Source of the DNA: an uncultured bacterium
GTDB taxonomy: Bacteria; Patescibacteriota; Minisyncoccia; UBA6257; 2-01-FULL-56-20
DNA: 64,000 nucleotides
Reading direction: 5' to 3'
Assembly: GCA_963719425.1 (NCBI GenBank)
Contig: OY970382.1
Location: 71,888 to 135,887, forward strand
Below are positions 4,717-63,113 of the stretch, piece after piece. Below the pieces are notes generated by a model. That model made no database searches and had not been told where the DNA came from. It saw nothing but the letters and a program-made list of their open reading frames with translations. The translations under genes were made by a program, and so were the position numbers. Within the stretch, counting starts at the first letter, position 1; each line of letters opens with the position of its first letter.

Positions 4717-4733
4717 TTGCGCGAATGCCCAAA

Positions 4734-4777
4734 AACAATCCAGCACCATCTTAAAAAATGGTGCTGGATTGTTTTTT
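4734..4777 (+). terminator. Rho-independent terminator after the giant surface-protein gene
   Basis: Stem aaaaacaatccagcaccat / atggtgctggattgttttt with loop cttaaaaa, followed by a T-tract gtttttt. Confidence 0.7.
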
Positions 4778-4881
4778 GGGGAGCTTTGTGATATAATATA
4801 GAGGAAGTCGCTTGCCTGTTGGCTTCTGGTCTCCTTTGAAGCCAGAGTCGGCCAGAAGCCAACAGGCAGGCAGCCACACCG

Positions 4882-5946
4882 ATGCTCAAGAAGCTGAAAA
4901 AATATTTTATACCGCACGACAGGAATGACCACCGACCGCACATCCTGCGGCCGCAGGTGGTCGCTTTTGTGTGCCTTATCGCGATTGTCGTGGAGGGCGT
5001 TTTTCTCCTCGGTTCGTCATTGGTGATCCCGCGTGTGAAGCTTTTCGGACTGATCATCGCGAATGCGCTCGTTGACGGCACGAACCAGGCGCGCGCTGCC
5101 GCCGATCTCCCTACGCTTCGCGAAAGCGGGCTTTTGGACGCGGCGGCGCAGGAAAAGGCGAACGACATGGTGACGAACAATTACTTTGCGCACACGAGCC
5201 CGTCGGGTATCACGCCATGGTATTGGTTCCAGAATGTAGGCTATCAGTTTGCCGTTGCAGGAGAGAATCTTGCAGTGGACTTTGCCGATTCGGCGGATGT
5301 GACGAATGCGTGGCTCAATTCCCCCGAGCACCGCGCGAACATCATGAACGCCGGCTATACCGAGATCGGCATGGCGACGGCGCAAGGTGAGTTCCAAGGG
5401 CGCTCCGCTGTTTACGTGGTGGAGCTTTTCGGCACACCGGCGGCTCCGGCCGTGCCTTTTGTGACGACTGCGGCAGCCGCATCACCTACGGGAGGCGCCG
5501 CGACCGCGAAGACAACTGCGCGCGTCCCGGTGACAAATCCCGTTGCGGCCGCGCCGCTCGTCGCCGCGACAAGCTCGGCAAATTCCGCTTCAGAGCAGAA
5601 TGTCGCGGTGGTGAAGGGTGCGCAAACAGAAACGGCTTCTGCGACAACGGCCGGCGTGACGACGACCGCGGGAGGAGCGCTCGCGTCGGCACAGACAGCC
5701 GCCCAGTCCCCGTCGCCGCAAACCAATTTCGTCCAAGGCGCCTTCGCCGATCCGCGGCGCACGGTTGACTATTTTTACTTCGGCGTCGCGCTCCTTTTTG
5801 TCATCGCCCTCTCCCTGAATATTTTTATCAAAATCCACATTCAGCACCCGCAGCTCATTCTTGGAGGGATGTTGGTTATCCTCCTCGCCGGGCTTTTCAT
5901 CGTCCTCAACCAGCACTTCGGCGCCTCGGGAGTCGTTATTTTATAG
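4882..5946 (+). CDS. CAP/SCP/PR-1-like (YkwD-type) extracellular domain protein with N-terminal TM, Ala/Thr-rich linker and C-terminal TM anchor
   Basis: ANALVDGTNQARAAADLPTL...NNYFAHTSPSG...AGENLA...NAWLNSPEHRANIMNAGYTEIGMA matches the CAP-domain signature. Hydrophobic segments at both termini. Confidence 0.6.
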   Translation: MLKKLKKYFIPHDRNDHRPHILRPQVVAFVCLIAIVVEGVFLLGSSLVIPRVKLFGLIIANALVDGTNQARAAADLPTLRESGLLDAAAQEKANDMVTNNYFAHTSPSGITPWYWFQNVGYQFAVAGENLAVDFADSADVTNAWLNSPEHRANIMNAGYTEIGMATAQGEFQGRSAVYVVELFGTPAAPAVPFVTTAAAASPTGGAATAKTTARVPVTNPVAAAPLVAATSSANSASEQNVAVVKGAQTETASATTAGVTTTAGGALASAQTAAQSPSPQTNFVQGAFADPRRTVDYFYFGVALLFVIALSLNIFIKIHIQHPQLILGGMLVILLAGLFIVLNQHFGASGVVIL

Positions 5947-6005
5947 TTTGTCAGGTCCGCCCCATTGCGGCCGTATTTTTTTTGGCATAAGCTCATAGCA
6001 TAGCG

Positions 6006-7727
6006 ATGCCGTCGCCCACGACCGAACTCATCAAGAGCAAGCTGGACATCGTGGATTTTCTCCGCGGCTATTTGACGCTCATGCCCGCGGGGAAAAATTT
6101 CAAGGCGCTGTGCCCGTTCCACAAAGAGAAGACGCCGTCCTTCATGGTGTCTCCCGAGCGGCAGTCGTGGTATTGCTTCGGCTGCGGGATCGGGGGTGAC
6201 ATCTTCGGCTTCGTGATGCGCTACGAGAACATGGAGTTCGGCGAGGCGCTCCGCCTGCTCGCCGAAAAAGCGGGTGTGGAACTGCGCCGCGAGAATCCCG
6301 CCGAGTACCGCTATGCCGGCCTGCTTTATGATTTGAACGAAGCGGCAAAAAATTATTTCAGGAAGGCGCTCGCGGCGGCACCCATCGCAAAAAAATACCT
6401 GGCTGAGCGCGGCCTCACGCCGGAAACGATTGAAGAGTTTGAACTCGGTTGGGCGCCGAACGAGCCGGAGGCGCTTTCCATGTTCCTTTTGAACTCTGGC
6501 AGCGCGCCGCAAGATCTCATCCAGGCCGGGCTTTCCATAAAGACCGAGCGCGGCCTGATGTTGGACCGCTTCCGCGGGCGCATCATGTTCCCGATCCATA
6601 ATCACCAGGGCAAGGTGGTTGGTTTTACCGGCCGCATCCTGCCGCAGATAGAAAAAACACTCACTGCAAACAGAGGCCAAGAGGTCGCGAAATATGTGAA
6701 CAGTCCCGAGACGCCGATTTTCCAGAAGTCGCGCCTTCTTTACGGATTTTGGAAAAGCAAGGATGCCATCCGCGAGGCGAAGTCGGCCTTCCTCGTAGAA
6801 GGTCAGATGGACTTTTTGATGAGCTGGCAGTCGGGGGTGAAGCACGTGGTCGCAAGTTCGGGCACGGCGCTCACCGCTGACCACCTGCGCTCCCTCCGTC
6901 GCCTCGCCGACGAATTAATAGTAAGCTTTGACAATGACATCGCCGGTTCCGACGCTGCGGAGCGGGCGATCGATCTTGCCGAGGCGAACGACTTCTCGGT
7001 GAAGGTGGCGATCATCAAGGATTTCAAGGATGCAGCCGATGCCGCGCAGGCGGATCCCGCAAACGTGCAAAAGGCGGTCGCCGGCGCCGTGGCTGCCCCC
7101 CTCTTTTATTTTGAAAAATACTTGCCGGAGGATCCAACAGGGCTCAAGACCCGCGAGGGCCTGCGGCAGCTGCGTGCAGTGCTCGGGAAATTGAAGAACA
7201 TTGCGAGCCCCGTGGAGCGCAGCTTTTGGCTGAAGGATCTTTCTGCGCGCACGGGCATCGCGGAAAAGACATTGGAGGAGGAGGCTGCGAGGGCGAACAC
7301 CGTGGGTATTCCGGTTGCCGCGCCGAAAGAAGAAGCGGCGTCAAGGCGCGAGGTAGGGCGCGCCGAGCTCATCGGTGAAGCATTGCTCGCCGCCGCGCTC
7401 GCAAAAAATGATTTCACAATATTTGATGATTGCATGACATTTTTGAATCCTGTCCAAAGAGAAATTCTCCGCATATTAAAGAGTGGAAAGACAAAGAGCG
7501 AAGACCTCTCGCTCGACGAGGCAATCGGGCTTATCGTGCTCCGCGCCTCGGGCGACGTCCCACACGAGGAAATTGAGGCGCTAAGGGCCGAACTTGCAAA
7601 GGAATATTATAAAGAGCGCCGCAAGATTCTCGCGCAGGCGATAAAGAATGCCGAGGCGAACGGGAACGATGTGGAGCTTAAAGCGGCGCTTGAGGAACTC
7701 GTGAGCTTGCCAAACGGCGAAAAATAG
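6006..7727 (+). CDS. dnaG: DNA primase
   Basis: CHC2 zinc-finger CPFHKEKTPSFMVSPERQSWYCFGCGIGGDIFGF. TOPRIM motif FLVEGQMDFL...SFDNDIAGSDAAERA. Confidence 0.9.
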   Translation: MPSPTTELIKSKLDIVDFLRGYLTLMPAGKNFKALCPFHKEKTPSFMVSPERQSWYCFGCGIGGDIFGFVMRYENMEFGEALRLLAEKAGVELRRENPAEYRYAGLLYDLNEAAKNYFRKALAAAPIAKKYLAERGLTPETIEEFELGWAPNEPEALSMFLLNSGSAPQDLIQAGLSIKTERGLMLDRFRGRIMFPIHNHQGKVVGFTGRILPQIEKTLTANRGQEVAKYVNSPETPIFQKSRLLYGFWKSKDAIREAKSAFLVEGQMDFLMSWQSGVKHVVASSGTALTADHLRSLRRLADELIVSFDNDIAGSDAAERAIDLAEANDFSVKVAIIKDFKDAADAAQADPANVQKAVAGAVAAPLFYFEKYLPEDPTGLKTREGLRQLRAVLGKLKNIASPVERSFWLKDLSARTGIAEKTLEEEAARANTVGIPVAAPKEEAASRREVGRAELIGEALLAAALAKNDFTIFDDCMTFLNPVQREILRILKSGKTKSEDLSLDEAIGLIVLRASGDVPHEEIEALRAELAKEYYKERRKILAQAIKNAEANGNDVELKAALEELVSLPNGEK

Positions 7728-21068: not shown

Positions 21069-22593
21069 ATGAAAAAAATTATTTCGGTCGGTTCTGTTTT
21101 AGTCCTTAGTGTGGGGCTTTTAGTTAGTGTTGCGCACGCGGCGACAATTTGTACTCCAATAACTGGAGGTGGAACGAAAACTGACACGATAGGAACGGGT
21201 GCGGCAAGTGTAGCTGGCAATAATTTAGATGCAGTTTATGGTCTGATTACTGCTTCCGCTTCTGGAGCGTTGCAGTCAATAGGAATTGATATGGTGGCTG
21301 GGAGGCAGTGGAGATGTAGCGGTTGCCCTTTATTCCGACGTTAGTGGAGCTCCTGGAGCTATACTTGCTCAAAGTGCGAGTGTTCCTACCACTTCTGGCT
21401 GGCAGGAGATTCCCATCACTGGTGCGAGCATTGTTGCAGGAACAAGCTATTACTTGGCAGAGGAGTTCAGTAGTTCCGCTGATACGTGGTATTACATAGC
21501 TACACCTAACGCTTGGTATTATCCTTATACTACTTTTGGGACTTTCCCGACGAGTGTCACTTGGGTTTCCAACACCAACATCATTGAGACGAGCATGACC
21601 TACACGACCGGAGCGACGCCGGTCGATTGGGGTGCTGTCCCTGTAACAAATGCTGCGGTCGTTGCAACGACGGGGCAAACGATAACCGGTCCGATTGACG
21701 CGACCGGATGCGACGTCGGAGTTTACGTAGGCCCTGCCGTTTCGGGAGTAACCGTCACCGCAAAGGTAAGTAATGCACATTATGTGGGGATATACGTAGA
21801 CGGTGGCAATGCAAATGTAACCGGTTCAACGGTCTCCAACGTCGGTGATAACCCCTTTGACGGAATGCAGTATGGCTGGGGCATAGCGTACGTAAACAAT
21901 GGTAGTAATGGAGCGACAGGGAAGGTGACCAACACCCGCGTCAGTTCTTATCAAAAGGCAGGAATAGTAGTCTTGGGCCAAGACACCAACGTGACCCTTT
22001 CTGGCGATACGGTAACCGGCAATGGACCAGTACCGTATATAGCGCAGAACGGCGTAGAGTTCGATTCTGGGGCCAACGGCTCTATAACGAACAGCCAGGT
22101 AAGCGGGGACAGCTGTACCCTCCCAGGAACTTGTGGAGAAGATTACTTTGCCACCACCCAGTCAGTTGGCATATTGTTAGATGATGCGGCGTCTGGCGTG
22201 GTAGTCTCAAACAATAAAGTGTCGTCGAGCGACATAGGAGTATGGGCGGGATACGACAGCCAGTATGGCTCGTCAGAACCGGAAAGTGTAAGTAACAATA
22301 CCCTTCAGAACAACTATGGCTATGGGCTTCTCTTTGACAGTGTCAACGGGACAAGCACGAACAACTACTTCCAGAACAATCCGGTGGGACTGCTCGTGAC
22401 AGACTATTCGGCTAATTCCTATGTGACGAGCATCAATGATCAGTTCATGAATAATAAGGTGAACAACGAGGCACTTCAGATGCCGGGATCCTCATTTAAT
22501 GAGAATCTTGTCGTTGAGACCAGTGCTTGGCCGATGCATTTCCCGTTTCCCGGACCGCACGGACCGCACGGACCGCACTTCCCTAAGTGGTAA
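21069..22593 (+). CDS. Secreted parallel beta-helix repeat protein with His/Pro-rich C-terminus; reading frame interrupted by an apparent +1 frameshift near 21290-21340 (pseudogene or sequencing/assembly error)
   Basis: Signal peptide MKKIISVGSVLVLSVGLLVSVAHA in frame 0 (21069..21344). Body in frame +1 (21286..22593) has NxTxSGxTVTGNG / SNNKVSSSDIG beta-helix-type repeats. Frame +1 opens only immediately after a TAG, so the shift must lie in the overlap (G-run ctgggagg). Confidence 0.5.
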
Positions 22594-22696
22594 CGACCCG
22601 GATTCCCGTGACTTCATAAAAGGGCAGCTGCGTCAATGACCCGGCGGGACGACCGCGGATGCTCAGTTTGCGCGCCGGTGTTACAATAAGTGCAAT

Positions 22697-23294
22697 GAAA
22701 AGGGCCATCATTGTGCATTGTTGGGAAGGATATCCGGAGTATTGTTGGTATCCGTGGGTGCAGCATCAACTTGAAGCAAAGGAATTTTTGGTGCAGGTCC
22801 CTGCTTTTCCGGAGACAGAAACTCCCCAGCAGGCAAAATGGGTTCCCTTCCTCGCGGAAAAAGTGGACAAGCCCGACGACGATCTGTTCCTTGTGGGTCA
22901 TAGCGTGGGATGCATCACCATTCTCCGATATCTTGAAACACTCAAGGAGGGTGAACGGGTAGGGGGCGTGGTCTTGGTCGCGGGATATACGGACGACCTC
23001 GGCTACAAGGAACTCAGTAATTTTTTCCAAGCCCCGCTTGACTTCCGGAAGATCAAATCCAGATCAAAGTGCGGTTTCGTTGCCATCCATTCCGATGATG
23101 ATCTGTATGTTGATCTCAAATTCGCCGCTGTTTTTAAAAAAGAACTCGGCGCCGAAGTGATTGTCAAGCATGCGATGGGACATTTCTCCGGTCCGATTGG
23201 AAAAGAAGGGTCGTGCACGGAACTTCCGGACGTCGTTCGGTCTATAGAAAGATTATCCGACGCGCGCTTCAAGCACGCGATGGCCAGCCCTTAG
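22697..23294 (+). CDS. Alpha/beta serine hydrolase, YdeN/RBBP9 (Ser_hydrolase) family
   Basis: IIVHCWEGYPEYCWYPW...LFLVGHSVGCITILRYLE...VVLVAGYTDD...FVAIHSDDDLYV...HAMGHFSG (GxSxG nucleophile elbow, Asp, His). Paralogous to the domain inserted in leuS. Confidence 0.65.
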
Positions 23295-23314
23295 TGTTAG
23301 AATTTAAACAACCC

Positions 23315-24460
23315 ATGTTTAAAAACCCTCTGAGGGGCGTTTACATAATGAACGCAATCTATGGTCTCGCAGGGTCTTTCGTGGGAATTTTTATACCGAT
23401 ATATCTGCTTCGAAAAAACCTGAATCCCGCCAACGTTTTCGGTTTCTATCTGGTCTACACCGTCGGCATTCTTATCTTCTTCTTTCTTGCCAATCATATC
23501 GTCCGCGCGCTTGGTCTCCGGAAGACCGTGCTCCTCGGCTATCCATTCCTCTTTTTATATTTCTTTCTGCTGTATACGCTCGACCAATATGGCACTCCGC
23601 TTTATGTCCTCGCTATCATAAATGCCTTTCAGACGTCACTCTATTGGTTTCCTCTTCACATGTGGCTTACGAATACCTCGCGCGAAGGAAGCATTGGAAA
23701 TGATCTAGGAAAATTCTTCGCGGCTTCACAAATAGTTGGACTGTTTGCGCCGGCCATCGCAGCATTTATCGTTCTTTTCTTGGGGTTCAAGGCGCTCTTT
23801 ATCTTTGCCGGCGTAATTTATCTCATATCGGCAATCCCTATGTTCTATTTGCCGGAATTCCCGTTCAAGGAAAAAATCCGAATGGACAGATTCATAATGT
23901 TATTGAAAGAATATCCGCATTATATTGTTGCAGAGATCTTTGAGAATATACGGGAAGATGCAGAAGCCATAATCTGGCCTGTCTTTATTTATTTAAGCTT
24001 CCGAAATATTCTTTCAATCGGTTACATCGGGACCATAAGCGGTGTGGGCAGCATTTTATTCATATGGCTCGTCGGAAAATATACCGATAAAATAGATAAG
24101 CGAAAACTGCTTGGTGTCGGTGCGATTATCATGGTTATTACCTGGATTCTTCGGTTATTCGCATATACTCCGCTTTCAGCCTATGTGCTCACTCTTGTCG
24201 CGGCGTTCTTTGCGGCACTTATCCTTATCCCTATCAACACTATCGTATACGGCGTAGCAAAGCGTGAAGGCGCTCCCACCTTTATCCTCTTTCGAGAATT
24301 CGGCGTCACGCTTGGGCGACTTCTTCTTTATCTCTTTGCCTTTTTAGTGCTCTCCTCCATAAACTACATATTCGTATTCACCGCAATAGCGTGCTTCGGT
24401 TTGTTTTACCTTTCACGAAAAAATCTGGAAAGGCCGGAACTGACTGTTATCACACCATGA
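23315..24460 (+). CDS. MFS transporter
   Basis: 12 predicted TM helices (MFKNPLRGVYIMNAIYGLAGSFVGIFIPIYLL...). Start chosen downstream of the hydrolase stop. Confidence 0.7.
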   Translation: MFKNPLRGVYIMNAIYGLAGSFVGIFIPIYLLRKNLNPANVFGFYLVYTVGILIFFFLANHIVRALGLRKTVLLGYPFLFLYFFLLYTLDQYGTPLYVLAIINAFQTSLYWFPLHMWLTNTSREGSIGNDLGKFFAASQIVGLFAPAIAAFIVLFLGFKALFIFAGVIYLISAIPMFYLPEFPFKEKIRMDRFIMLLKEYPHYIVAEIFENIREDAEAIIWPVFIYLSFRNILSIGYIGTISGVGSILFIWLVGKYTDKIDKRKLLGVGAIIMVITWILRLFAYTPLSAYVLTLVAAFFAALILIPINTIVYGVAKREGAPTFILFREFGVTLGRLLLYLFAFLVLSSINYIFVFTAIACFGLFYLSRKNLERPELTVITP

Positions 24461-24903
24461 AGATAAAAGACCGCTTCCGGCCGTTCGCAGCCGTATATGT
24501 ATTGTTCGTGAGGAACGACAAAATTTTAATGGCGCGCCGCGCCCATACTGGTTATCAGGATGGAATGTACAGCCTGCCGGCAGGCCATATTGACGGCAAT
24601 GAAACATTAAGAGCCGCGGCAGTACGTGAAGCCCGCGAGGAAACGGGAGCCACGATTGCCCAAAGAGACCTTGAACTAAAGCTCACCATGCACCGGATTC
24701 ATGACCGGGAATATCTTGACGTTTTCTTTCTTGTGAAAAAATGGCGCGGCACGATGCGGAACCGCGAACCGCACAAGTGCGACGATTTGAGTTGGTTTCC
24801 ACTCAACGCTATTCCTAAAAATACCATTCCCTACGTCCGCGAGGCGATCAGGTGCTATCGGAAGGGGATCCGGTATTCGGAATTCGGATGGGCAGGGCGG
24901 TAG
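24458..24903 (+). CDS. NUDIX hydrolase
   Basis: Nudix box GHIDGNETLRAAAVREAREETG. Confidence 0.75.
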
Positions 24904-56564: not shown

Positions 56565-57580
56565 TGGAGAAACGGCTCTATGAAATTTCCTGGGCAAGCT
56601 TGTGGCGAATGCTTCTCTTCGTCGTTTTAGTCGCGATTTTGTACGAAGGGAGGCAGATCATCCTCGGGCTTTTCCTTGCCATTATCATTTCTTCTGGCCT
56701 TGAGTGGTTCGTGGATATTCTTGAGCGCGCAGGGCTCCCACGCAGCGTGGGCGTAATTCTCATATTCCTCGCCGCGGTCGTCCTGCTTGTCTTTATCATT
56801 TATTCCCTTGCCCCTGTTATCATCGTGGAGTTGAACACGATTTTCTCCGGCAGCGGGCAGGGAGTGACGAGCAGCTGGGGGGCGCTCTTGAGCTTGAAGG
56901 CATCGCAGTCCGTGAGTGGCTTCGTGAGTAAGTTTTCTTCATCACTTTTTGCGGGCAATACTTCGCCCTTGGATCTCTTTTCCAATGCCGTAGGAAGCGT
57001 GGGGCTCGTTGTAGCCGTCATTCTCTGCTCGTTTTATCTGAGTTTGAGCAAAGACGGGGTGGAGCGGTTCCTCCGGGTGGTCGTTCCGCCGGCGTATGAA
57101 GCGACGGCTCTCACCATCTACGAACGCTCGCGAAAGCTCATCAGCTCGTGGTTCCGCATGCAGATTCTCTTGAGTTTCATCTTCGGATTTACGGTGTGGG
57201 CCGGCCTTGCACTCCTCGGCGTGAAGTATAGTTTCCTTATCGCATTTCTCGCGGGCATTTTTGAACTCGTGCCGTTCGTGGGGCCGTTTCTTTCCGGCGC
57301 GCTTGCCGTAATCTCGGCGCTCTCCACGTCTACAACGCTCGCAATCTACACGTTGATATTCTTCGTCATCGCCGAACAGTTTGAGGCAAACGTTCTTGTG
57401 CCGCTCCTGAACCAGCAGATCGTGGGTATCCATCCGGTCATCGTGATCGTCGCATTGCTCATCGGCGCCGAGGTGGGCGGCGTTTTGGGCATCATCATTT
57501 CGGTTCCTGCCGCAGGTATCTTCCAGGAGGTTATTCAGGAGTGGTCAACCAAACGACGCAGCACGACAACGGCAACGTAA
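56561..57580 (+). CDS. AI-2E family transporter (UPF0118/PerM-like)
   Basis: 8 TM. FLAGIFELVPFVGPFLSGALAVISAL. Confidence 0.8.
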   Translation: MMEKRLYEISWASLWRMLLFVVLVAILYEGRQIILGLFLAIIISSGLEWFVDILERAGLPRSVGVILIFLAAVVLLVFIIYSLAPVIIVELNTIFSGSGQGVTSSWGALLSLKASQSVSGFVSKFSSSLFAGNTSPLDLFSNAVGSVGLVVAVILCSFYLSLSKDGVERFLRVVVPPAYEATALTIYERSRKLISSWFRMQILLSFIFGFTVWAGLALLGVKYSFLIAFLAGIFELVPFVGPFLSGALAVISALSTSTTLAIYTLIFFVIAEQFEANVLVPLLNQQIVGIHPVIVIVALLIGAEVGGVLGIIISVPAAGIFQEVIQEWSTKRRSTTTAT

Positions 57581-57582
57581 GC

Positions 57583-59013
57583 ATGGACCGGTTTTACGTT
57601 ACGACCCCCATTTATTACGTGAACGATAAGCCGCATATCGGCCATGCGTACACGACGATCGTGGCGGACATGCTCGCGCGCTCACGGCGCGCGTACGGCG
57701 AGGACGTGTGCTTCCTTACCGGCACCGACGAGTTTGCGCAGAAGACTGTGGACGCGGCGAAGAAGGCGGGAGAGGAAACGCAGGCCTATGCCGACCGGAT
57801 GGCCGCAATATGGCGCTCCACATGGGAAAAACTCGGCATCTCCAATACGGATTTTATCCGCACGACCGAGCCGAGGCACATGGAGGTCGTGCAGGAGGTT
57901 TGGCGGCGCGTGCAGGCTGCCGGGGATATCTACAAGGGGCAATACCAGGGGCTCTATTGCAAAGGCTGTGAGGCCTTCAAAAACGAGGACGAACTCACGG
58001 ACGGTCTCTGTCCGGAGCATAAGACGAAGCCCGAACTCGTATCCGAGGAAAATTATTTCTTCCGACTTTCCAAATATCAAAAGAGGCTTCTGGATTTCTA
58101 CGACACACAAAGTGACTTCGTCACGCCCGCGTATCGCCTCAATGAGGTAAGGAGTTTCGTCGCGGCGGGCCTTGAGGATATCAGTATTTCCCGCGAGAAG
58201 CGTTCGTGGGGGATCCCGGTGCCGGACGATCCGGGACAGGTAATCTACGTATGGTTTGACGCGCTCGTCAATTACATTTCGGCGGTCGGCATTGAGGGAT
58301 GGGAAGCGCATCCGGCGGACGCCCACGTGATGGCGAAAGACATCATCCGTTTCCATGCAGTGATCTGGCCCGCGATGCTCATGTCTGCGGGACTGCCGCT
58401 CCCGGGGCAGGTCGTCGTCCACGGTTTCTTCACCGTGAATGGCGTGAAAATATCAAAGTCACTGGGGAACGTGATTGATCCACTGGACATTGCGAAAAAA
58501 TACGGCACCGACGCCCTTCGCTACTTCCTGCTCCGCGAGATACCGTTCGGGGAGGACGGGGATTTTTCGGAAGCGAAGGCGGGGGAGCGATACCGAAGCG
58601 ACCTTGCGAACGGATTGGGGAATTTTGCCGCGCGCGTGCTCACGCTCGCGGAAAAAGAGGAATTGGCATGCGCGTTGCCGAGCCACGAATTTGAGGAGCG
58701 AATCGCGGAAATGAAGCGTATCGTGCACGCAAAGATGGGCGAGTACAGGTTTTCGGAGGCGCTTGCGGCCGTTTGGGCGGCGATCGCGTTCGGCGATCGT
58801 TATATGGAGGAGAAAAAGGCCTGGGGGATAAAGGACGAGGCGAAACGGAGGCTCGTGCTCTGCAATCTCACGCTCCTCTTGGAGAGTGTTGCCGAGGCAC
58901 TCGTGCCGTTCCTGCCGGACGCGGCCGCAAAGATACGCGGGGCGATCGTGCGGAACGAAGAGGTCCTGACCGCAAAGAAAACGGAGAGCCTTTTCCCACG
59001 GCTCAAAGAATAG
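57583..59013 (+). CDS. metG: Methionine--tRNA ligase (minimal form, no C-terminal dimerisation domain)
   Basis: PIYYVNDKPHIGHAYTTIVADMLAR (HIGH). KISKSLGN (KMSKS). Confidence 0.9.
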   Translation: MDRFYVTTPIYYVNDKPHIGHAYTTIVADMLARSRRAYGEDVCFLTGTDEFAQKTVDAAKKAGEETQAYADRMAAIWRSTWEKLGISNTDFIRTTEPRHMEVVQEVWRRVQAAGDIYKGQYQGLYCKGCEAFKNEDELTDGLCPEHKTKPELVSEENYFFRLSKYQKRLLDFYDTQSDFVTPAYRLNEVRSFVAAGLEDISISREKRSWGIPVPDDPGQVIYVWFDALVNYISAVGIEGWEAHPADAHVMAKDIIRFHAVIWPAMLMSAGLPLPGQVVVHGFFTVNGVKISKSLGNVIDPLDIAKKYGTDALRYFLLREIPFGEDGDFSEAKAGERYRSDLANGLGNFAARVLTLAEKEELACALPSHEFEERIAEMKRIVHAKMGEYRFSEALAAVWAAIAFGDRYMEEKKAWGIKDEAKRRLVLCNLTLLLESVAEALVPFLPDAAAKIRGAIVRNEEVLTAKKTESLFPRLKE

Positions 59014-59014
59014 C

Positions 59015-59884
59015 ATGGAGTTTTTTGACGCGCATGCACATATGCAGTTTTCCGCATACGACGTCGACCGCGCATCGGTGATCCGGCGCGCAGAGGACGC
59101 GGGCGTCCGCGTCGTGAACATAGGCACCCAGCGCGACACCTCCGCGCGCGCCGTCGCGCTTGCGGAACAGCATGCCGGATTCTACGCTGCGGTGGGGCTC
59201 CATCCCATCCATACAAGCGAGTCGTACCATGATGCGGACGAGCTTGGCGGGGGCGAGGCGGCGAAGGCGTTCACCTCGCGTGGCGAAATATTCGACGCCG
59301 ATCATTACAGGACGCTTGCCCTTCATCCGAAAACGGTTGCGATCGGGGAATGCGGTCTTGATTATTTCCGTTTCAACGAGGACGAGAGCCGCGAGGAGCA
59401 AATAGAAAGACAGAAAGCGGCGTTCCTCGCGCAGATAGCATTCGCGCGCGAAGTGAAAAAGCCGCTCATGATCCATTGCCGCGACGCGTTCGCGGACCTC
59501 GTTCATTTATTGAAGGACAACGCATCCGGGTTTCCCGCCAGCGGTCCCGGTATCATTCACTTTTTCACTGGCAGCACCGCAGACGCAAAACAGCTGCTTG
59601 ATCTTAGATTTTATTTCACATTCGGCGGCGCGATCACGTTTCCACCGCGGAAAGGGAAAGCCGAAGGTGACTACGATGCGATCGTGAAAATGATTCCGGT
59701 GGACAAAATCTTATCCGAGACCGACGCGCCCTATGTCGCGCCCGCGCCCTATCGCGGCAAGCGCAATGAACCCGCCTACGTAGTTGAGGTGGTTAAAAAA
59801 CTCGCCGAGCTCAAAGGTATTTCTTTTGAAAAAATGGCGGAGCAGGTATTTCGGAATGCCCAGCGGATTTTCATAACATCTTGA
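59015..59884 (+). CDS. tatD: TatD-family metal-dependent DNase
   Basis: FFDAHAHMQF...IGECGLDYFR...ETDAPYVAPAPYRGKRNEPAYV. Confidence 0.85.
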   Translation: MEFFDAHAHMQFSAYDVDRASVIRRAEDAGVRVVNIGTQRDTSARAVALAEQHAGFYAAVGLHPIHTSESYHDADELGGGEAAKAFTSRGEIFDADHYRTLALHPKTVAIGECGLDYFRFNEDESREEQIERQKAAFLAQIAFAREVKKPLMIHCRDAFADLVHLLKDNASGFPASGPGIIHFFTGSTADAKQLLDLRFYFTFGGAITFPPRKGKAEGDYDAIVKMIPVDKILSETDAPYVAPAPYRGKRNEPAYVVEVVKKLAELKGISFEKMAEQVFRNAQRIFITS

Positions 59885-60050
59885 CCGGCGGAAGTTCTCG
59901 TATTATCCTAAAAGATGTTCCTTTTGGGCGTTTTTCTTAACCCGGCCGCGCCGCCTCGGCGCGGCCCCAACCAAGTCCCCGTTGGTGATTTTGACCAACG
60001 GGGCAAATTCTTTTCAATGCCCGCAAATCGGTTTACAATATGAAATATCT

Positions 60051-63000
60051 ATGTCCAAATACGAACCGAAGGATTTTGAGGCGAAATGGCAGAAAAAATG
60101 GCTGGAGGAAGGTGTCTATGAACCGGACTTAGATAAAGCAAAGAAACCGTTCTACAACCTAATGATGTTTCCGTACCCCTCGGCGGAGGGGTTACATGTG
60201 GGAAACATGTACGCGTTCACGGGCGCGGACATCTACGGGCGGATGAAGCGCATGCAGGGCAATGACGTGTTTGAACCGATCGGCCTGGACGGTTTCGGCA
60301 TCCATTCGGAAAATTATGCGCTGAAGATCGGTGCGCATCCGATGGACCGGGCAAAGGTTTCGGAGGAGCGTTTTTATAAACAGCTCGCCGCCATCGGCAA
60401 CGGTTTTGCGTGGAACGAGCGATTGGAGACCTATGACCCCGAATACTACCGCTGGACGCAGTGGATCTTCGTCCAAATGTGGAAGCACGGCCTTGCGTAC
60501 CGAAAAAAGCAGTCGGTCAATTGGTGCCCGAAGGACCAGACGGTGCTTGCCGATGAACAGGTGATCGCGGGCGCCTGTGAGCGCTGTGGGACGCCGGTCA
60601 TCCAAAGGGAGCTTGAGCAATGGTTTTTCAAAATCACCGAGTACGCCGGCCGTCTGCTCAAGAATCTGGAAACGTTGGATTGGTCGGAAAAAGTGAAAAT
60701 CGCGCAGAAGAAATGGATAGGGAAGTCGGAAGGAGCGGTAATAGAATTTCCGATAAAAACTGATGTAAAAAAAGTTGTACTGATGCATGGTAAAGATACG
60801 AATCCCAGTCAAAAATGGTACCCCTGGATGATTAAAGAAATTAAAAAAAGGAAAATTGAATGTGTCGCTCCTTATTTGCCCAATCCAAACAATCCAGAGA
60901 TTGATGCTTGGATTAAAGAAGTTGAAAAGACACATCCGGACAAAAATACTGTTTTAGTAGGTCACTCCCGCGGCGGGGTCGCGATTTTGCGATGGTTGGA
61001 AAGTATGCCGAGGGGCGATAAGGTTAAGCAGGTGATCTTGGTAGCGGCCAACAGAGGAGACAATAAAGAATCGGATGGTAAGTTTTTAGGGAAACCGTAT
61101 AATTTCGAAAAAATAAAATCGCATTGCGATGATTTTGTGGTTTTACATTCCCGCGATGACGAATGGGTGCCCTTTGAAGTGGGAGAATATCTTGCGAAGG
61201 GGTTAAACGCCGATTTCCTGATTTTTGATGGGAAGGGGCATTTTGGAAAATATTTAAAATCGCCCGAAATTCCAGAAATCATCGCTAAACTTTTCCCTTC
61301 GATTAGGGTTTTCACGACGAGGCCGGATACGCTTTTCGGCGCGACCTACATGGTGCTCGCGCCCGAGCATCCGTTGGTTGCGCAGCTTGAATCTCGTATC
61401 GCCAATTTGAGCGAGGTGAAGAAATATATAAAGAATGCGAAGGATAAAACCGACGCCGAGCGCATCGCGGAAGGAAAAGAGAAAAGCGGCGTGGAGCTGA
61501 AAGGCATCAGGGCCATCAATCCGGCCACCAAAGAAGAAATACCGATTTGGGTCGCCGACTATGTTTTGGCGATCTATGGAACGGGCGCCATTATGGCCGT
61601 TCCCGCGCACGACGGGCGCGACTTTGCGTTTGCAAAGAAGTTCAGGCTGCCTATCAGGAAAGTGGTAATTCCCGTTTTGCGCTCGCAATCGGCCATAGCG
61701 GGGGCTACCGGGATTGCGGAGAGCGGGATTTCGATTGAAAGCGAAATGTGGGAAGGGGACGGCGAGCTTGTGGATTCCGGGGAGTTTGATGGCATGGATT
61801 CTGAAAAAGCGAAGTGGGAAATCGCGAAATTTGTGGGCGGCGAGCGGAAAACGACCTACCGCCTGCGCGACTGGCTTATCTCGCGCCAGCGCTACTGGGG
61901 GCCGCCGATCCCGATGGTGCACTGCGAAGCGTGCGCGCGTGCGAAAAAAGGCGAGCATGCGGACATGCCCGGTTGGTATGCGGTGCCCGAGGAAGACCTG
62001 CCCGTGAAGCTTCCCTATGTGAAGGATTTCCGTCCGACGGGGAGCGGTGTTTCACCTCTCGCTGCAGTGAAGGAATTTTATGAGACCAAGTGCCCCGCGT
62101 GCGGCGGCCCCGCGCGGCGGGAAACGGACGTATCGGACACATTCCTGGATTCGGCGTGGTACTATCTCCGCTATCTTGATCCGCAGAATACGAAGGGAGC
62201 GTTCAATTACAAGCGGACTGAGAAATGGCTGCCGATAGAAAAAGGAACCGCCACGCGGCTCTACACGGGCGGCGCGGAGCACTCGGTACTTCACCTGCTC
62301 TATGTGCGATTCGTGGCGATGGCGCTTGCCGATTGGGGATTCGTCGTCTCGCCGGAACCGTTCAAAAAATTCCGCGCGCACGGGTTGCTCATCAAAGAAG
62401 GCGCCAAAATGTCCAAATCCAAAGGCAACGTCATCAATCCTGACGAATACATTCAGAAATTCGGCGCGGACACGCTGCGGATGTACCTTATGTTCTTGGC
62501 GCCATTTGAGGACGGCGGCGATTTCCGCGACCAGGCGATCCTCGGTATTCTCCGTTTTTTGGAGCGTGTGTGGAAATTGGGCGAGGCGGTCGCCTCCGAA
62601 AAACGGATGGACAGCGCCCCCACGAGCGCAAAAAGAAAAGGAAGCAGAGTGATCGCGATTGCAGTGAAAAAGGTATCCGAGGACATCGAGCGGCTGCACT
62701 ACAACACCGCGGTGAGCGCGCTCATGATATGCCTCCGCGCGCTGGAAGAGGAACGTGAAGAGGGATATGTCGCCCGCGGGGACTTTGAAACATTTCTGAA
62801 ACTGCTCGCGCCCTTCGCGCCGCACATCGCAGAGGAACTTTGGCGCAGCGCCCTCGGCGAGGTTGCCTCCGTCCATCGCGCCGCATGGCCAGTATACGAT
62901 CCGGCGCTTATCGCGCAGGAGTCGATCGCGCTCGTCGTCCAGGTGAACGGCAAGGTGCGCGACGTAATTGCGGCGGATGCCTCCACCATCACCGAGGCGG

Positions 63001-63113
63001 CCGCGAAGGAACTCGCGCTCCGGAGCAAAAAGGTGCAAAATGCTCTGGGGGGCCGGACGCCCGCAAAGGTCATTTATGTAGATAAAAAACTAGTGAATAT
63101 CGTACTTCCATAA
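60051..63113 (+). CDS. leuS: Leucine--tRNA ligase carrying an in-frame ~183-aa alpha/beta serine-hydrolase (YdeN/RBBP9-type) insertion (about 60757-61305) between the KWIGKSEG strand and the CP1 editing domain
   Basis: HVGNMYAFTGADIYGR (HIGH). Zn-1 CPKDQ...CERCG. Insertion VVLMHGKDTNPSQKWYPW...TVLVGHSRGGVAILRWLE...VVLHSRDDEWV...GKGHFG. Then canonical CP1 VFTTRPDTLFGATYMVLAPEHP. KMSKSKGN later. Insertion DNA is conspicuously AT-rich. Confidence 0.9.
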   Translation: MSKYEPKDFEAKWQKKWLEEGVYEPDLDKAKKPFYNLMMFPYPSAEGLHVGNMYAFTGADIYGRMKRMQGNDVFEPIGLDGFGIHSENYALKIGAHPMDRAKVSEERFYKQLAAIGNGFAWNERLETYDPEYYRWTQWIFVQMWKHGLAYRKKQSVNWCPKDQTVLADEQVIAGACERCGTPVIQRELEQWFFKITEYAGRLLKNLETLDWSEKVKIAQKKWIGKSEGAVIEFPIKTDVKKVVLMHGKDTNPSQKWYPWMIKEIKKRKIECVAPYLPNPNNPEIDAWIKEVEKTHPDKNTVLVGHSRGGVAILRWLESMPRGDKVKQVILVAANRGDNKESDGKFLGKPYNFEKIKSHCDDFVVLHSRDDEWVPFEVGEYLAKGLNADFLIFDGKGHFGKYLKSPEIPEIIAKLFPSIRVFTTRPDTLFGATYMVLAPEHPLVAQLESRIANLSEVKKYIKNAKDKTDAERIAEGKEKSGVELKGIRAINPATKEEIPIWVADYVLAIYGTGAIMAVPAHDGRDFAFAKKFRLPIRKVVIPVLRSQSAIAGATGIAESGISIESEMWEGDGELVDSGEFDGMDSEKAKWEIAKFVGGERKTTYRLRDWLISRQRYWGPPIPMVHCEACARAKKGEHADMPGWYAVPEEDLPVKLPYVKDFRPTGSGVSPLAAVKEFYETKCPACGGPARRETDVSDTFLDSAWYYLRYLDPQNTKGAFNYKRTEKWLPIEKGTATRLYTGGAEHSVLHLLYVRFVAMALADWGFVVSPEPFKKFRAHGLLIKEGAKMSKSKGNVINPDEYIQKFGADTLRMYLMFLAPFEDGGDFRDQAILGILRFLERVWKLGEAVASEKRMDSAPTSAKRKGSRVIAIAVKKVSEDIERLHYNTAVSALMICLRALEEEREEGYVARGDFETFLKLLAPFAPHIAEELWRSALGEVASVHRAAWPVYDPALIAQESIALVVQVNGKVRDVIAADASTITEAAAKELALRSKKVQNALGGRTPAKVIYVDKKLVNIVLP

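What the first reader, a model, noticed from the sequence alone, without database searches (positions are those of the whole stretch)
60757..61305. Leucyl-tRNA synthetase with an inserted alpha/beta serine-hydrolase domain, plus a free-standing paralog
The leuS reading frame is continuous. Between the conserved KWIG(K/R)SEG...F strand and the TTRPDTLFGATY start of the CP1 editing domain sits a ~183-aa module. Canonical LeuRS has only ~10 residues at this position.

The module has a GHSRG nucleophile elbow and downstream HSRDDEW and GKGHFG motifs, the YdeN/RBBP9 'serine hydrolase' fold. It is clearly homologous to the stand-alone gene at 22697-23294 (WYPW, LVGHSxG..ILRYLE, VxLVA, IHSDDD, GHF shared). 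The inserted DNA is strikingly AT-rich relative to the rest of leuS, suggesting a relatively recent in-frame acquisition.

An esterase-type hydrolase grafted directly onto the editing domain of an aaRS is, to my knowledge, an undescribed architecture. It could be an additional deacylation or proofreading activity (a trans-editing-like function in cis), or an unrelated moonlighting domain. It is not an intein: there are no Cys/Ser-His-Asn splicing motifs or endonuclease blocks.
Basis: partly seen in the sequence, partly recalled or inferred. Interest (0 to 1): 0.78.

Follow-up and report, generated by a model that had tools for sequence, protein, structure and literature searches.

The report
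Serine hydrolase gene inserted into LeuRS
A complete, apparently active serine-hydrolase gene sits in frame in a surface loop of the proofreading domain of an essential tRNA-charging enzyme. This turns out to be one case of a widespread, repeatedly evolved and apparently undescribed habit of candidate-phyla-radiation bacteria.

Summary
leuS (60051-63113, +) is one continuous ORF. A 181-aa module (60756-61298) replaces a ~5-residue loop just before the TTRPDT editing motif. The module is an RBBP9/YdeN-type serine hydrolase (PF06821) with its Ser306/Asp370/His397 triad intact.

It is not unique. 80 of the 121 nearest LeuRS proteins (Patescibacteria) carry cargo at this loop (site A), at a second loop after the editing core (site B), or at both. 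The cargo is PF06821, NUDIX or Ham1.

It does not derive from the window's stand-alone paralog (31% identity). It groups with free-standing hydrolases (50-65%) and with embedded copies in three other leuS genes.

The 87%-identical syntenic ortholog lacks it, and insert GC3 is 0.42 against 0.64-0.70 for the rest of the gene. This points to a recent lateral gain.

Relatives of the same hydrolase are also embedded in PheRS-beta, Met-tRNA formyltransferase and UvrB.

Function is inferred, not shown. RBBP9 cleaves single hydrophobic alpha-amino acids that have a free amine. The best guess is therefore an extra aminoacyl-ester hydrolase acting beside an intact CP1 editing site. I found no paper describing this architecture.

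The parts
60051..63113 (+). leuS, bacterial-type leucyl-tRNA synthetase, 1020 aa (an upstream in-frame TTG at 59982 is probably not the start)
   Evidence: ORF. TIGR00396 leuS_bact scores 870.6 bits (cut-off 548.4) in two stretches broken by the insert. The N-terminus MSKYEPKD aligns with homologues. It matches T. thermophilus LeuRS 1h3n at E=2.5e-206.
60723..60755 (+). Outgoing beta-strand of the hairpin that carries the insert (residues 225-235, ...KSEGAVIEFPI)
   Evidence: Strand E225-235 in the full-length AF2 model, with pLDDT ~92-96. Homology with the ortholog L001 ends at ...TTTCCGATA.
60756..61298 (+). Inserted module (residues 236-416). It is a complete PF06821 hydrolase reading frame without start or stop codons, plus a 5-residue N-linker and a 2-residue C-linker.
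   Evidence: It is absent from the syntenic orthologs L001 and L002. It aligns end to end with free-standing ~180-aa proteins. PF06821 E=9e-18. The AF2 model has pLDDT 92.4 and pTM 0.90. Foldseek top hits are RBBP9 7oex and YdeN 1uxo at TM 0.82-0.85. GC3 is 0.42 against 0.64-0.70 elsewhere in the gene.
60966..60968 (+). Codon of Ser306, the predicted nucleophile (GHS*RGG)
   Evidence: It aligns to RBBP9 Ser75. This position is invariant in 109/109 free-standing, 52/52 site-A embedded and 5/5 B-type embedded copies.
61158..61160 (+). Codon of Asp370, the predicted triad acid (HSRDD*EW)
   Evidence: It aligns to RBBP9 Asp138 (residues counted from the printed alignment). The position is Asp or Glu in all groups.
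61239..61241 (+). Codon of His397, the predicted triad base (GKGH*FG)
   Evidence: It aligns to RBBP9 His165. The position is conserved in 108/109 free-standing and 52/52 site-A embedded copies.
61299..61841 (+). CP1 editing domain (residues 417-597), with intact TTRPDT (422-427) and GTG...AHDGRD (510-524) motifs
   Evidence: PF13603 E=1.4e-57. The motifs are equally conserved in cargo-bearing and plain LeuRS. The returning strand E417-422 leads straight into the T-rich motif.
61662..61760 (+). Site B, the second insertion point. Here it holds only a ~33-aa peptide (residues 538-570). Relatives hold NUDIX or a second hydrolase at this position.
   Evidence: Alignment, insert lengths, and classes. 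The sister L001 has a 153-codon NUDIX here with GC3 0.40.
22695..23294 (+). Stand-alone PF06821 hydrolase, a distant family member (an alternative start lies at 22659)
   Evidence: PF06821 E=3e-23. It is 31% identical to the insert. It falls outside the clade of the insert plus free-standing relatives (188/200 bootstrap).
24454..24903 (+). Stand-alone NUDIX hydrolase, two genes downstream of the stand-alone PF06821 gene (an MFS transporter lies between them)
   Evidence: NUDIX box found, ORF, and PF00293 E=2e-20 with MFS_1 for 23345-24460.
57541..59884 (+). metG and tatD upstream of leuS. This gene order is conserved in the loci of the nearest relatives.
   Evidence: ORFs. The same metG-tatD-leuS order is seen in L001 and L002.

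Best explanation
SHOWN. A whole RBBP9/YdeN-type serine-hydrolase gene, without its start and stop codons, is embedded in frame at the tip of the beta-hairpin that leads into the T-rich motif of the LeuRS CP1 editing domain. The Ser-Asp-His triad is intact. The LeuRS synthetic and editing motifs are also intact, so the hydrolase is an addition, not a replacement.

SHOWN. This is one instance of a recurrent cargo habit in Patescibacteria. Two loops flanking the CP1 core (sites A and B) repeatedly acquire PF06821, NUDIX or Ham1 domains. These are the same three families that are also fused to one another as free-standing proteins.

INFERRED. This copy belongs to a small clade of embedded copies (window, P0390, L006). 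It entered a previously cargo-free leuS recently, by lateral transfer from an AT-richer source. The route was most likely recombination with a cargo-bearing leuS allele, because the junctions and a loop deletion are shared.

INFERRED. The closest characterised relative, RBBP9, forms an acyl-enzyme with single hydrophobic alpha-amino acids (Leu/Ile, Phe, Tyr, Trp) and requires a free alpha-amine. I therefore propose that the domain is an alpha-aminoacyl ester/anhydride hydrolase held within roughly 2 nm of the CP1 pocket. It would remove amino acids from mischarged tRNA-Leu 3' ends, or from released aminoacyl-adenylate or aminoacyl-nucleoside by-products. That would be a second quality-control or housecleaning site working beside the canonical editing site.
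For: Anatomy. In the AF2 model, strand 225-235 is followed by a 5-residue linker, the hydrolase (241-414), a 2-residue linker, then strand 417-422 and TTRPDT. The junction blocks have pLDDT 92-96.

Active-enzyme signature: the triad aligns to RBBP9 S75/D138/H165 and is conserved in all embedded lineages. The model is confident and its fold matches the RBBP9-Phe complex 7oex and YdeN.

Additive, not replacement: HIGH-type, KMSKS, TTRPDT and AHDxRD motifs are equally conserved in all four cargo classes.

Recurrence: 80 of 121 nearest LeuRS carry cargo. PF06821 entered LeuRS as at least five lineages: the site-A clade (149/200), the B-type clade (199/200), the window/P0390/L006 clade (149/200), L008 and L009.

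Recent lateral gain: the sister P0121 (87% identity, syntenic) and 7 further clade members lack a hydrolase. GC3 is 0.42 against 0.64-0.70, lower than all 394 control windows. The insert is about equally similar to P0390's and L006's inserts (65% and 62%), although their LeuRS cores differ greatly in similarity to ours (70-78% vs 43-56%).

Chemistry: RBBP9 traps Leu/Ile/Phe/Tyr/Trp on the catalytic residue, needs a free alpha-amine, and the bond cleaved may be 'amide (or ester or thioester)' (PMC8866121). RBBP9 is reported as a valacyclovir-activating enzyme (title of Shenoy et al. 2020, seen as reference 5 of PMC7730578). Valacyclovir being an amino-acid ester of a nucleoside analogue is my own knowledge. 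A bacterial YdeN homologue is an esterase (PMC6119806).

Guilt by association: the same hydrolase subfamily is embedded in PheRS-beta, in three Met-tRNA formyltransferase representatives, and is fused to NUDIX, Ham1 and a cytidylate-kinase-like domain.
Against: No activity has been measured for any bacterial member of this subfamily on aminoacyl-tRNA or aminoacyl-adenylate. The same hydrolase is also embedded in UvrB, which has no connection with aminoacyl-tRNA. In PheRS-beta it sits in a B5 hairpin rather than in the B3/4 editing domain itself. The RBBP9 residues that hold the alpha-amine are not clearly conserved: Ser76 is Arg, Tyr99 is Asn, and the Glu108 alignment is ambiguous by one position in a loop that carries a deletion and is poorly modelled. 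The structure tool returns no coordinates, so the distance and orientation between Ser306 and the CP1 pocket could not be measured. The ~2 nm figure is only a chain-length argument. Evidence for allele-to-allele recombination is suggestive only. The trees are neighbour-joining, and key nodes have ~75% support.
Confidence: 0.45

Rival explanations
1. Independent passenger enzyme. The hydrolase (like the NUDIX and Ham1 cargo) does its own housecleaning or esterase job, unrelated to leucylation. It sits in LeuRS only because these CP1 loops tolerate compact domains whose ends lie close together. Embedding in an essential, constitutively expressed gene guarantees expression and retention in a tiny genome.
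For: The same hydrolase subfamily is embedded in UvrB and fused to a cytidylate-kinase-like domain, so hosts are not confined to tRNA enzymes. Free-standing copies are by far the commonest form, and several paralogs occur per genome. In every host the insertion is in a surface loop. LeuRS motifs are unchanged by the presence of cargo. The cargo families are fused to each other without any LeuRS.
Against: Only three families are seen as cargo in 80 LeuRS proteins. PF06821 entered the same two CP1-flanking loops at least five separate times, which is more than simple tolerance predicts. Three of the hosts (LeuRS, PheRS-beta, Fmt) handle the aminoacylated tRNA 3' end. RBBP9 chemistry fits aminoacyl esters.
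Confidence: 0.35
2. Cis-acting resistance module. The hydrolase (and NUDIX/Ham1 in relatives) destroys natural LeuRS inhibitors that mimic leucyl-adenylate or aminoacyl-nucleotides. This would protect the enzyme at the site of attack.
For: The cargo families cleave esters/amides (PF06821) and nucleotide pyrophosphate bonds (NUDIX, Ham1). Together these are the bonds of aminoacyl-nucleotide antibiotics (inference). The patchy, laterally moving distribution resembles that of resistance traits. NCBIfam lists an IleRS with an N-acetyltransferase domain (NF040702). From my own knowledge, that domain class detoxifies aminoacyl-nucleotides in microcin C immunity.
Against: No inhibitor is known for these organisms. 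The hydrolase gives no hit in defence or phage libraries. The UvrB and Fmt hosts are not explained.
Confidence: 0.07
3. Selfish in-frame element. The hydrolase cassette spreads by inserting into conserved essential genes, as inteins do. It persists because precise deletion is rare, and it brings no benefit to the host.
For: It has AT-rich foreign composition. Its distribution on the LeuRS tree is patchy, with a minimum of 18 state changes at site A. Its hosts are essential housekeeping genes of the kind inteins favour.
Against: There is no Hint, endonuclease or recombinase domain, and no splice-junction residues (the insert begins with Lys and ends with Pro). There are no terminal repeats or target duplication above chance. 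The catalytic triad is strictly conserved in ancient embedded lineages, which indicates selection on hydrolase activity. Most family members are ordinary free-standing genes.
Confidence: 0.08
4. Assembly artefact. The segment is a chimeric join of a hydrolase gene into leuS.
For: There is an abrupt GC drop confined to the segment. The exact protein is not on record in the public collection.
Against: Both junctions are in frame and fall exactly in the loop where 52 other LeuRS proteins carry the same family. Four independent assemblies (P0390, L006, L008, L009) carry the same subfamily at the same place, and two of them share the junction structure. The full-length AF2 model is confident across both junctions.
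Confidence: 0.02

Closest known systems
RBBP9 (human) and YdeN (B. subtilis) serine hydrolases, Pfam PF06821 / DUF1234
   Same: They share the family (PF06821 E=9e-18) and the compact ~185-aa alpha/beta fold (TM 0.82-0.85 to 7oex, 2qs9 and 1uxo). The Ser-Asp-His triad is aligned. RBBP9 releases single hydrophobic alpha-amino acids from substrates with a free amine (PMC8866121).
   Different: Sequence identity is only 25-27%. The residue after the nucleophile is an invariant Arg (GHSRGG) instead of Ser. The loop that holds the alpha-amine in RBBP9 is shortened and poorly modelled. Here the domain is embedded inside another enzyme, and its substrate is unknown.
LeuRS CP1 editing domain and its known peripheral insertions and hairpins
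   Same: The host is a bacterial-type LeuRS with CP1 inserted after the zinc hairpin and with intact editing motifs. Lineage-specific peptide insertions in or around CP1 that modulate activity are known (discussed in PMC4138327).
   Different: The known insertions are short peptides or hairpins without catalytic residues. Here a complete second hydrolase, with its own active site, occupies a loop that has 5 residues in T. thermophilus. This LeuRS also lacks the leucine-specific domain.
Free-standing and fused aaRS editing factors (AlaX, YbaK/ProXp, Dtd, and the B3/4 domain of PheRS)
   Same: The proposed role is the same: hydrolysis of an aminoacyl ester on tRNA as extra quality control, in cis or in trans (for example ProXp-ala, PMC10164551).
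   Different: The fold and catalytic mechanism are unrelated (alpha/beta hydrolase with a Ser nucleophile). The insert has no Pfam match to any of those families, and no activity has been shown.
aaRS with appended non-canonical catalytic domains, for example IleRS with an N-acetyltransferase domain (NCBIfam NF040702)
   Same: A class Ia synthetase carries an extra small-molecule-modifying enzyme domain (the family is listed).
   Different: The domain family and position differ. Here it is an internal insertion in CP1, not a terminal extension, and the cargo at the same site can be swapped (PF06821, NUDIX, Ham1).
Inteins
   Same: Both are foreign, compositionally distinct, in-frame insertions in conserved essential genes, with a patchy phylogenetic distribution.
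   Different: There is no Hint or endonuclease domain and there are no splice-junction residues. The insert is a conserved enzyme that is presumably retained in the mature protein.

Membership tests
Bacterial-type leucyl-tRNA synthetase (TIGR00396 leuS_bact) | Whole-protein score above the curated equivalog cut-off | tested here: met
   870.6 bits against a cut-off of 548.4, in two stretches interrupted by the insert.
Bacterial-type leucyl-tRNA synthetase (TIGR00396 leuS_bact) | Class I signature motifs (HIGH-type and KMSKS) | tested here: met
   HVGN and KMSKS are present, as in 108 and 123 respectively of the 124 related LeuRS proteins compared.
Bacterial-type leucyl-tRNA synthetase (TIGR00396 leuS_bact) | CP1 editing domain with a T-rich motif and the conserved Asp (AHDxRD) | tested here: met
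   PF13603 E=1.4e-57. TTRPDT lies at residues 422-427 and AHDGRD at 519-524.
Bacterial-type leucyl-tRNA synthetase (TIGR00396 leuS_bact) | Leucine-specific domain before KMSKS (present in most bacterial LeuRS) | tested here: not met
   Query residues 781 to 782 align to T. thermophilus 578 to 633, so the ~54-residue domain is absent. A functional LeuRS without it is known (Mycoplasma mobile, PMC3643597), so membership is not excluded.
Bacterial-type leucyl-tRNA synthetase (TIGR00396 leuS_bact) | Leucylation and editing activity | not testable with these tools
   This needs enzyme assays.
PF06821 Ser_hydrolase (RBBP9/YdeN) | Pfam score above the gathering threshold | tested here: met
   65.2 bits against 22 for the insert alone, and 60.2 bits within the whole protein.
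PF06821 Ser_hydrolase (RBBP9/YdeN) | Ser-Asp-His catalytic triad at the family positions | tested here: met
   Ser306, Asp370 and His397 align to RBBP9 Ser75, Asp138 and His165.
PF06821 Ser_hydrolase (RBBP9/YdeN) | Compact alpha/beta-hydrolase fold like 2qs9 and 1uxo | tested here: met
   The AF2 model has pLDDT 92.4. Foldseek E values are 2e-15 to 1e-13, with TM 0.81-0.85.
PF06821 Ser_hydrolase (RBBP9/YdeN) | RBBP9-like alpha-amine pocket (Ser76, Tyr99, Glu108) | tested here: inconclusive
   Ser76 is Arg and Tyr99 is Asn. A Glu lies at or next to the Glu108 column, depending on the aligner. The loop carries a deletion and has low pLDDT.
PF06821 Ser_hydrolase (RBBP9/YdeN) | Hydrolase activity | not testable with these tools
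   This needs an assay, for example with aminoacyl-AMC, pNP esters or aminoacyl-tRNA.
Intein | Hint domain, a Cys/Ser/Thr at the first residue, and a C-terminal His-Asn followed by Cys/Ser/Thr | tested here: not met
   The insert begins with Lys236 and ends ...Phe415-Pro416. There is no Hint, LAGLIDADG or HNH Pfam hit.
Known aaRS editing-domain families (YbaK/ProX, AlaX, Dtd, B3/4) | Sequence membership of the inserted module | tested here: not met
   Only alpha/beta-hydrolase families match the insert in Pfam, and nothing matches in NCBIfam.
Transposable or insertion element | Terminal inverted repeats, target-site duplication, or a transposase/recombinase | tested here: not met
   Only short chance-level repeats occur around 60600-61450. 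The insert is fully accounted for by the hydrolase reading frame.
Anti-phage defence protein families (PADLOC) and phage protein families (PHROGs) | Profile match of the hydrolase | tested here: not met
   No PADLOC hit. There is only a weak partial PHROG 'esterase/lipase' match (4.5e-6, with no stretch passing on its own).

The most novel reading that the evidence does not exclude
PF06821 hydrolases, together with NUDIX and Ham1 domains, form a previously unrecognised, laterally exchangeable set of accessory modules in candidate-phyla-radiation bacteria. These modules are plugged repeatedly into enzymes that handle the aminoacylated tRNA 3' end (LeuRS, PheRS-beta, Met-tRNA formyltransferase). 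In this reading the hydrolase is a new class of aminoacyl-ester (aa-tRNA or aa-AMP) deacylase. That would amount to a second, serine-nucleophile proofreading site on a class I synthetase.
Probability: 0.3. Interest if true: 0.85.

Novelty: new variant of a known kind. Interest (0 to 1): 0.68.

Why it matters
Synthetase fidelity is thought to rest on a small set of editing folds. A serine-hydrolase domain recruited again and again to the editing domain of LeuRS would be a new solution to proofreading or by-product clearance. It occurs in organisms with minimal genomes, where every retained domain is likely to matter.

It would also give a physiological substrate class to the RBBP9/YdeN family, whose bacterial function is unknown. 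It would link that family to the NUDIX and Ham1 housecleaning enzymes with which it is fused.

Independently of function, the data show an unusual evolutionary process. Whole enzyme genes enter the same two loops of an essential protein many times, and sister genomes (87% LeuRS identity) carry different AT-rich cargo at different sites.

The hypothesis is directly testable with one recombinant protein and two point mutants.

Tried and rejected
1. A combined alignment of LeuRS with the short free-standing hydrolases (A2) scattered the short sequences across LeuRS, so I discarded it. Separate alignments A3 and A4 were used for the models.

2. My first conclusion, 'independent capture directly from a free-standing gene', was revised. 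A genome scan and a junction-spanning search found embedded copies of the same subfamily with the same junctions. The word-indexed search was not exhaustive (247 candidates).

3. I tested for a recombination tract covering the insert plus CP1. Identity to the sister drops from >=0.9 to 0.7-0.9 across residues ~211-597, and the best match switches to other alleles. But CP1 GC3 is host-like (0.68) and CP1 evolves faster in all pairs, so the result is inconclusive.

4. Terminal repeats or target duplication: none above chance.

5. Intein: rejected.

6. Defence-island link, suggested by the context of P0003 (Bro-N, methylase): no support from PADLOC or PHROGs.

7. The exact protein is not on record in the public gene index, so the source sample was not identified.

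8. Six literature searches for the architecture found nothing.

10. Inter-site distances could not be measured because the structure tool returns no coordinates.
Full report
**1. What is there**

The + strand carries one uninterrupted reading frame from 59982/60051 to 63113. From the ATG at 60051 it encodes a 1020-aa protein. This protein scores 870.6 bits against the bacterial LeuRS equivalog model TIGR00396 (cut-off 548.4), in two stretches. It matches T. thermophilus LeuRS (1h3n) at E=2.5e-206. Query residues 1-236 align to Tt 1-237 and query 418-781 to Tt 243-578. The extra segment therefore replaces a loop of five residues (Tt 238-242), immediately before the T-rich editing motif (TTRPDT, residues 422-427 here).

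Pfam places PF06821 (Ser_hydrolase) on the segment: E=9e-18 and 65 bits against a cut-off of 22. By DNA alignment with the closest ortholog, the foreign segment is 60756-61298 (181 codons). The stand-alone gene at 22695-23294 is also PF06821 and is 31% identical to the insert.

**2. The domain looks like a working enzyme, and LeuRS looks intact**

The insert aligns to human RBBP9 (E=1.4e-19) and B. subtilis YdeN (1.5e-15). Counting along the printed alignment, RBBP9 Ser75, Asp138 and His165 correspond to Ser306 (GHSRGG), Asp370 (RDDEW, second D) and His397 (GHFG).

An AlphaFold2 model of the insert has pLDDT 92.4 and pTM 0.90. The only soft region is residues ~101-115 of the insert. Its best structural matches are the RBBP9-phenylalanine complex 7oex, RBBP9 2qs9/9fcr and YdeN 1uxo (TM 0.81-0.85).

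In the full-length model (pLDDT 86, pTM 0.78), strand 225-235 runs out, five residues later hydrolase strand 241-245 begins, and the hydrolase ends with helix 408-414. Two residues later, strand 417-422 returns into TTRPDT. So the domain sits at the tip of a beta-hairpin on very short linkers. By chain length alone its C-terminus is about six residues (about 2 nm at most) from the first Thr of the editing motif. This is an inference, because the tool gives no coordinates.

The class I motifs (HVGN, KMSKS) and the editing motifs (TTRPDT, GTG...AHDxRD) are present here. They are equally conserved in cargo-bearing and cargo-free relatives. The hydrolase is therefore an addition to an intact editing domain, not a substitute.

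**3. It is not unique: two cargo sites flank the CP1 core**

The 120 best LeuRS hits in the 5.8-billion-protein collection are, where named, Patescibacteria (Liptonbacteria, Paceibacterota, Minisyncoccia). Their lengths cluster at ~810-860, ~950-1070 and ~1130-1210 aa.

Alignment shows two insertion points:
- **Site A** is the loop described above.
- **Site B** lies after '...FAKKFxLPIxxVI' and before 'GxLVNSGxFDG'.

Classification with a hydrolase HMM and the NUDIX box, counting our protein among the 121:

| Site A | Site B | Count |
|---|---|---|
| none | none | 41 |
| PF06821 | none | 28 |
| PF06821 | NUDIX | 21 (plus 3 with an unclassified site-B insert) |
| none | NUDIX | 18 (plus 6 with an unclassified site-B insert) |
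| none | PF06821 | 2 |
| PF06821 | PF06821 | 1 |
| Ham1/ITPase | NUDIX | 1 (P0179, confirmed by Pfam) |

Five of the nine unclassified site-B inserts carry PF00293 in the precomputed Pfam column.

One of these proteins (P0125) has been in GenBank and UniRef simply as 'Leucine-tRNA ligase' (KKW46454.1, UniRef100_A0A1G2CHR4). JGI names another 'leucyl-tRNA synthetase/predicted alpha/beta hydrolase family esterase'. Six full-text searches found no paper that describes the architecture.

**4. Where this copy came from**

The window's own stand-alone gene is not the source. The insert is 50-65% identical to 120 free-standing ~180-aa proteins of other Patescibacteria. It is only 25-36% identical to the 55 embedded hydrolases of the nearest LeuRS relatives, and 31% to the resident paralog. 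A neighbour-joining tree separates {insert + free-standing proteins + free hydrolase-NUDIX fusions} from {site-A embedded clade, B-type embedded clade, resident paralog} in 188/200 bootstraps.

The insert matches the free-standing proteins from their second residue to their last. It is therefore a whole gene minus its start and stop codons. The free-standing relatives are real genes that are not adjacent to leuS.

My first reading was direct capture from a free-standing gene, and it had to be revised. A scan of GTDB species genomes and a junction-spanning search found the same subfamily embedded at site A in L006, L008, L009 and P0390. The copies in the window, P0390 and L006 share the linker lengths at both junctions and a six-residue loop deletion, and they form a clade (149/200). 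L008's copy is nearest to free-standing genes (distance 0.33) and sits in tandem with a B-type hydrolase. L009's copy is separate and is accompanied by a B-type hydrolase at site B. PF06821 therefore entered LeuRS at least five times.

On a LeuRS core tree, the window's protein is sister to P0121. P0121 is 87% identical overall (92% over the core regions), shares the metG-tatD-leuS gene order, has nothing at site A and has NUDIX at site B. The pair is nested among seven cargo-free sequences.

Insert GC3 is 0.42, against 0.64-0.70 in every other segment of leuS, including CP1 at 0.68. It is below all 394 same-sized control windows. The sister's NUDIX is likewise AT-rich (GC3 0.40 against 0.60-0.73), and so is L006's hydrolase (0.39 against 0.49-0.59).

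The insert is about equally similar to the P0390 and L006 copies (65% and 62%). Yet their LeuRS cores are 70-78% and 43-56% identical to ours.

The simplest account is a recent lateral gain of an already embedded copy, by recombination between leuS alleles. This would also explain the exact reuse of the site. A wider recombination tract through CP1 is suggested but not established. No repeats or target duplication flank the insert.

**5. Other hosts of the same hydrolase**

An exhaustive HMMER search of 1.84 billion cluster representatives, followed by Pfam scans and inspection of the sequences, found relatives that are 45-50% identical to our insert in several other contexts:
- **PheRS beta-subunit (P0245):** in a B5 hairpin directly after the B3/4 domain.
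- **UvrB (P0243).**
- **Met-tRNA formyltransferase (P0248, P0252/P0414, P0265):** just after the PDxPxGRGxK loop. From my own knowledge of the E. coli Fmt-tRNA structure, that loop contacts the acceptor end.
- **Fusions:** with Ham1 (P0244), with a cytidylate-kinase-like domain (P0359), with NUDIX (many), and with a second hydrolase (P0241).

Each embedded copy is nearest to different free-standing genes. These proteins lie on contigs of 154 kb, 218 kb and 1.66 Mb.

**6. How it most likely works**

Shown: the anatomy, the intact triad in every embedded lineage, the intact host motifs, and the recurrent gain.

Inferred: the function. [quoted passage not shown] It requires a free alpha-amine, and its authors note that the scissile bond could be amide, ester or thioester (PMC8866121). 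RBBP9 has also been reported as a valacyclovir-activating enzyme (title cited in PMC7730578). That valacyclovir is an amino-acid ester of a nucleoside analogue is my own knowledge. A bacterial YdeN homologue is a short-chain esterase (PMC6119806).

An aminoacyl-tRNA 3' end and an aminoacyl-adenylate are exactly such alpha-amino acyl esters or anhydrides. Three of the hosts (LeuRS, PheRS, Fmt) bind that end, and the fusion partners NUDIX and Ham1 clear aberrant nucleotides. I therefore favour a cis-tethered aminoacyl-ester/adenylate hydrolase that supplements CP1 editing (confidence 0.45).

The main rival (0.35) is that the domain is an independent passenger in a permissive loop. The UvrB host, the kinase fusion and the dominance of free-standing copies speak for this rival. 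The restriction to three cargo families and the repeated use of the two CP1-flanking loops speak against it.

Three further rivals are less likely: a cis-acting resistance module against adenylate-mimic inhibitors (0.07), a selfish in-frame element (0.08) and an assembly artefact (0.02). The reasons are given under the rival explanations.

**7. Limits**

- The trees are neighbour-joining on 177-783 columns, and key nodes have ~75% support.
- The parsimony counts of gains and losses (18 at site A, 33 at site B) are inflated by tree error.
- The homolog searches list only the best 120-150 hits.
- The alpha-amine pocket of RBBP9 is not clearly conserved.
- No coordinates, reads or expression data were available.

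**8. Verdict**

This is a real, in-frame, recently and laterally acquired, probably active RBBP9/YdeN-type hydrolase domain on the editing domain of LeuRS. It is one member of a widespread, recurrent and apparently undescribed cargo architecture in Patescibacteria. It is a new variant of a known kind (a synthetase with an accessory domain). Interest is 0.68. The function is open but directly testable.

Noticed in passing
window 62388-62396 (residues 780-782): This LeuRS lacks the leucine-specific domain. Query residues 781 to 782 align to T. thermophilus 578 to 633. The region around KMSKS (779-793) is the least confident part of the full-length model.
   Followed up: partly
L001 6001-8937 (P0121): The 87%-identical, syntenic sister LeuRS has no hydrolase. 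Instead it has a NUDIX domain at site B with an intact NUDIX box and GC3 0.40, against 0.60-0.73 for the rest of the gene. Two sister genomes therefore hold different AT-rich cargo at different sites.
   Followed up: partly
window 22695-24903 (+): A stand-alone PF06821 hydrolase, an MFS transporter and a stand-alone NUDIX hydrolase lie in a row. This stretch and the beta-helix protein gene upstream (21286-22593) have the lowest GC3 of the long ORFs in the window (0.49-0.56, against a mean of 0.66).
   Followed up: partly
P0245, P0243, P0248, P0252/P0414, P0265 (proteins from the exhaustive search): Close relatives of the insert (45-50% identity) are embedded in surface loops of PheRS beta-subunit, UvrB and Met-tRNA formyltransferase.
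   Followed up: partly
P0252, P0414, P0265: The Fmt-embedded hydrolases show Trp where Gly is invariant (HSRWW for HSRGG, LLHWK for LLHGK, GHFW for GHFG). This suggests that the source genomes read UGA as Gly (code 25, Gracilibacteria/Absconditabacteria) and were translated with UGA=Trp.
   Followed up: no
P0179 (1172-aa LeuRS): A Ham1/ITPase-like domain (PF01725, 9.6e-15) occupies site A in place of the hydrolase, and NUDIX is at site B. Ham1 is also found fused to the hydrolase as a free protein (P0244).
   Followed up: partly
L008 2690-6319 and L009 3257-6805: L008's LeuRS carries two different PF06821 hydrolases in tandem at site A. L009's carries one at site A and another at site B. The MAG labels ('Micavibrio', 'Gammaproteobacteria') look doubtful for such LeuRS sequences. 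L008 has 32% GC.
   Followed up: partly
P0250/P0417 (1169 aa, on a 13-kb contig): This LeuRS reading frame begins at the hydrolase (site A) and continues through CP1, NUDIX and the C-terminal half. It may be a leuS gene split at the insertion site, or a stop-codon recoding artefact.
   Followed up: no
L005 3309-7888 (Falkowbacteria GCA_018656705.1): Three PF06821 genes lie within 5 kb (one of them fused to NUDIX), together with MazG, HAD and SNase genes. This is a cluster of housecleaning-type hydrolases.
   Followed up: no
L006 6255-6740: The leuS gene of this MAG changes frame near residue ~870: ORF 3281-6325 is followed by the overlapping ORF 6255-6740. This is either a frameshift or a sequencing error.
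   Followed up: no
window 61662-61760 (residues 538-570): The ~33-aa peptide at site B (VLRSQSAIAGATGIAESGISIESEMWEGDG) is shared with hydrolase-bearing LeuRS such as P0123 and P0125. It is absent from the closer cargo-free relatives P0122 and P0128. This hints that the CP1 region is mosaic.
   Followed up: partly
A3 alignment; insert residue 74 (protein Arg307): The residue after the nucleophile is Arg in all 109 free-standing proteins of this subfamily and in the four LeuRS-embedded copies of our type. It is Leu in the site-A embedded clade and Cys in the B-type clade. This may be a marker of subfamily-specific substrates.
   Followed up: no
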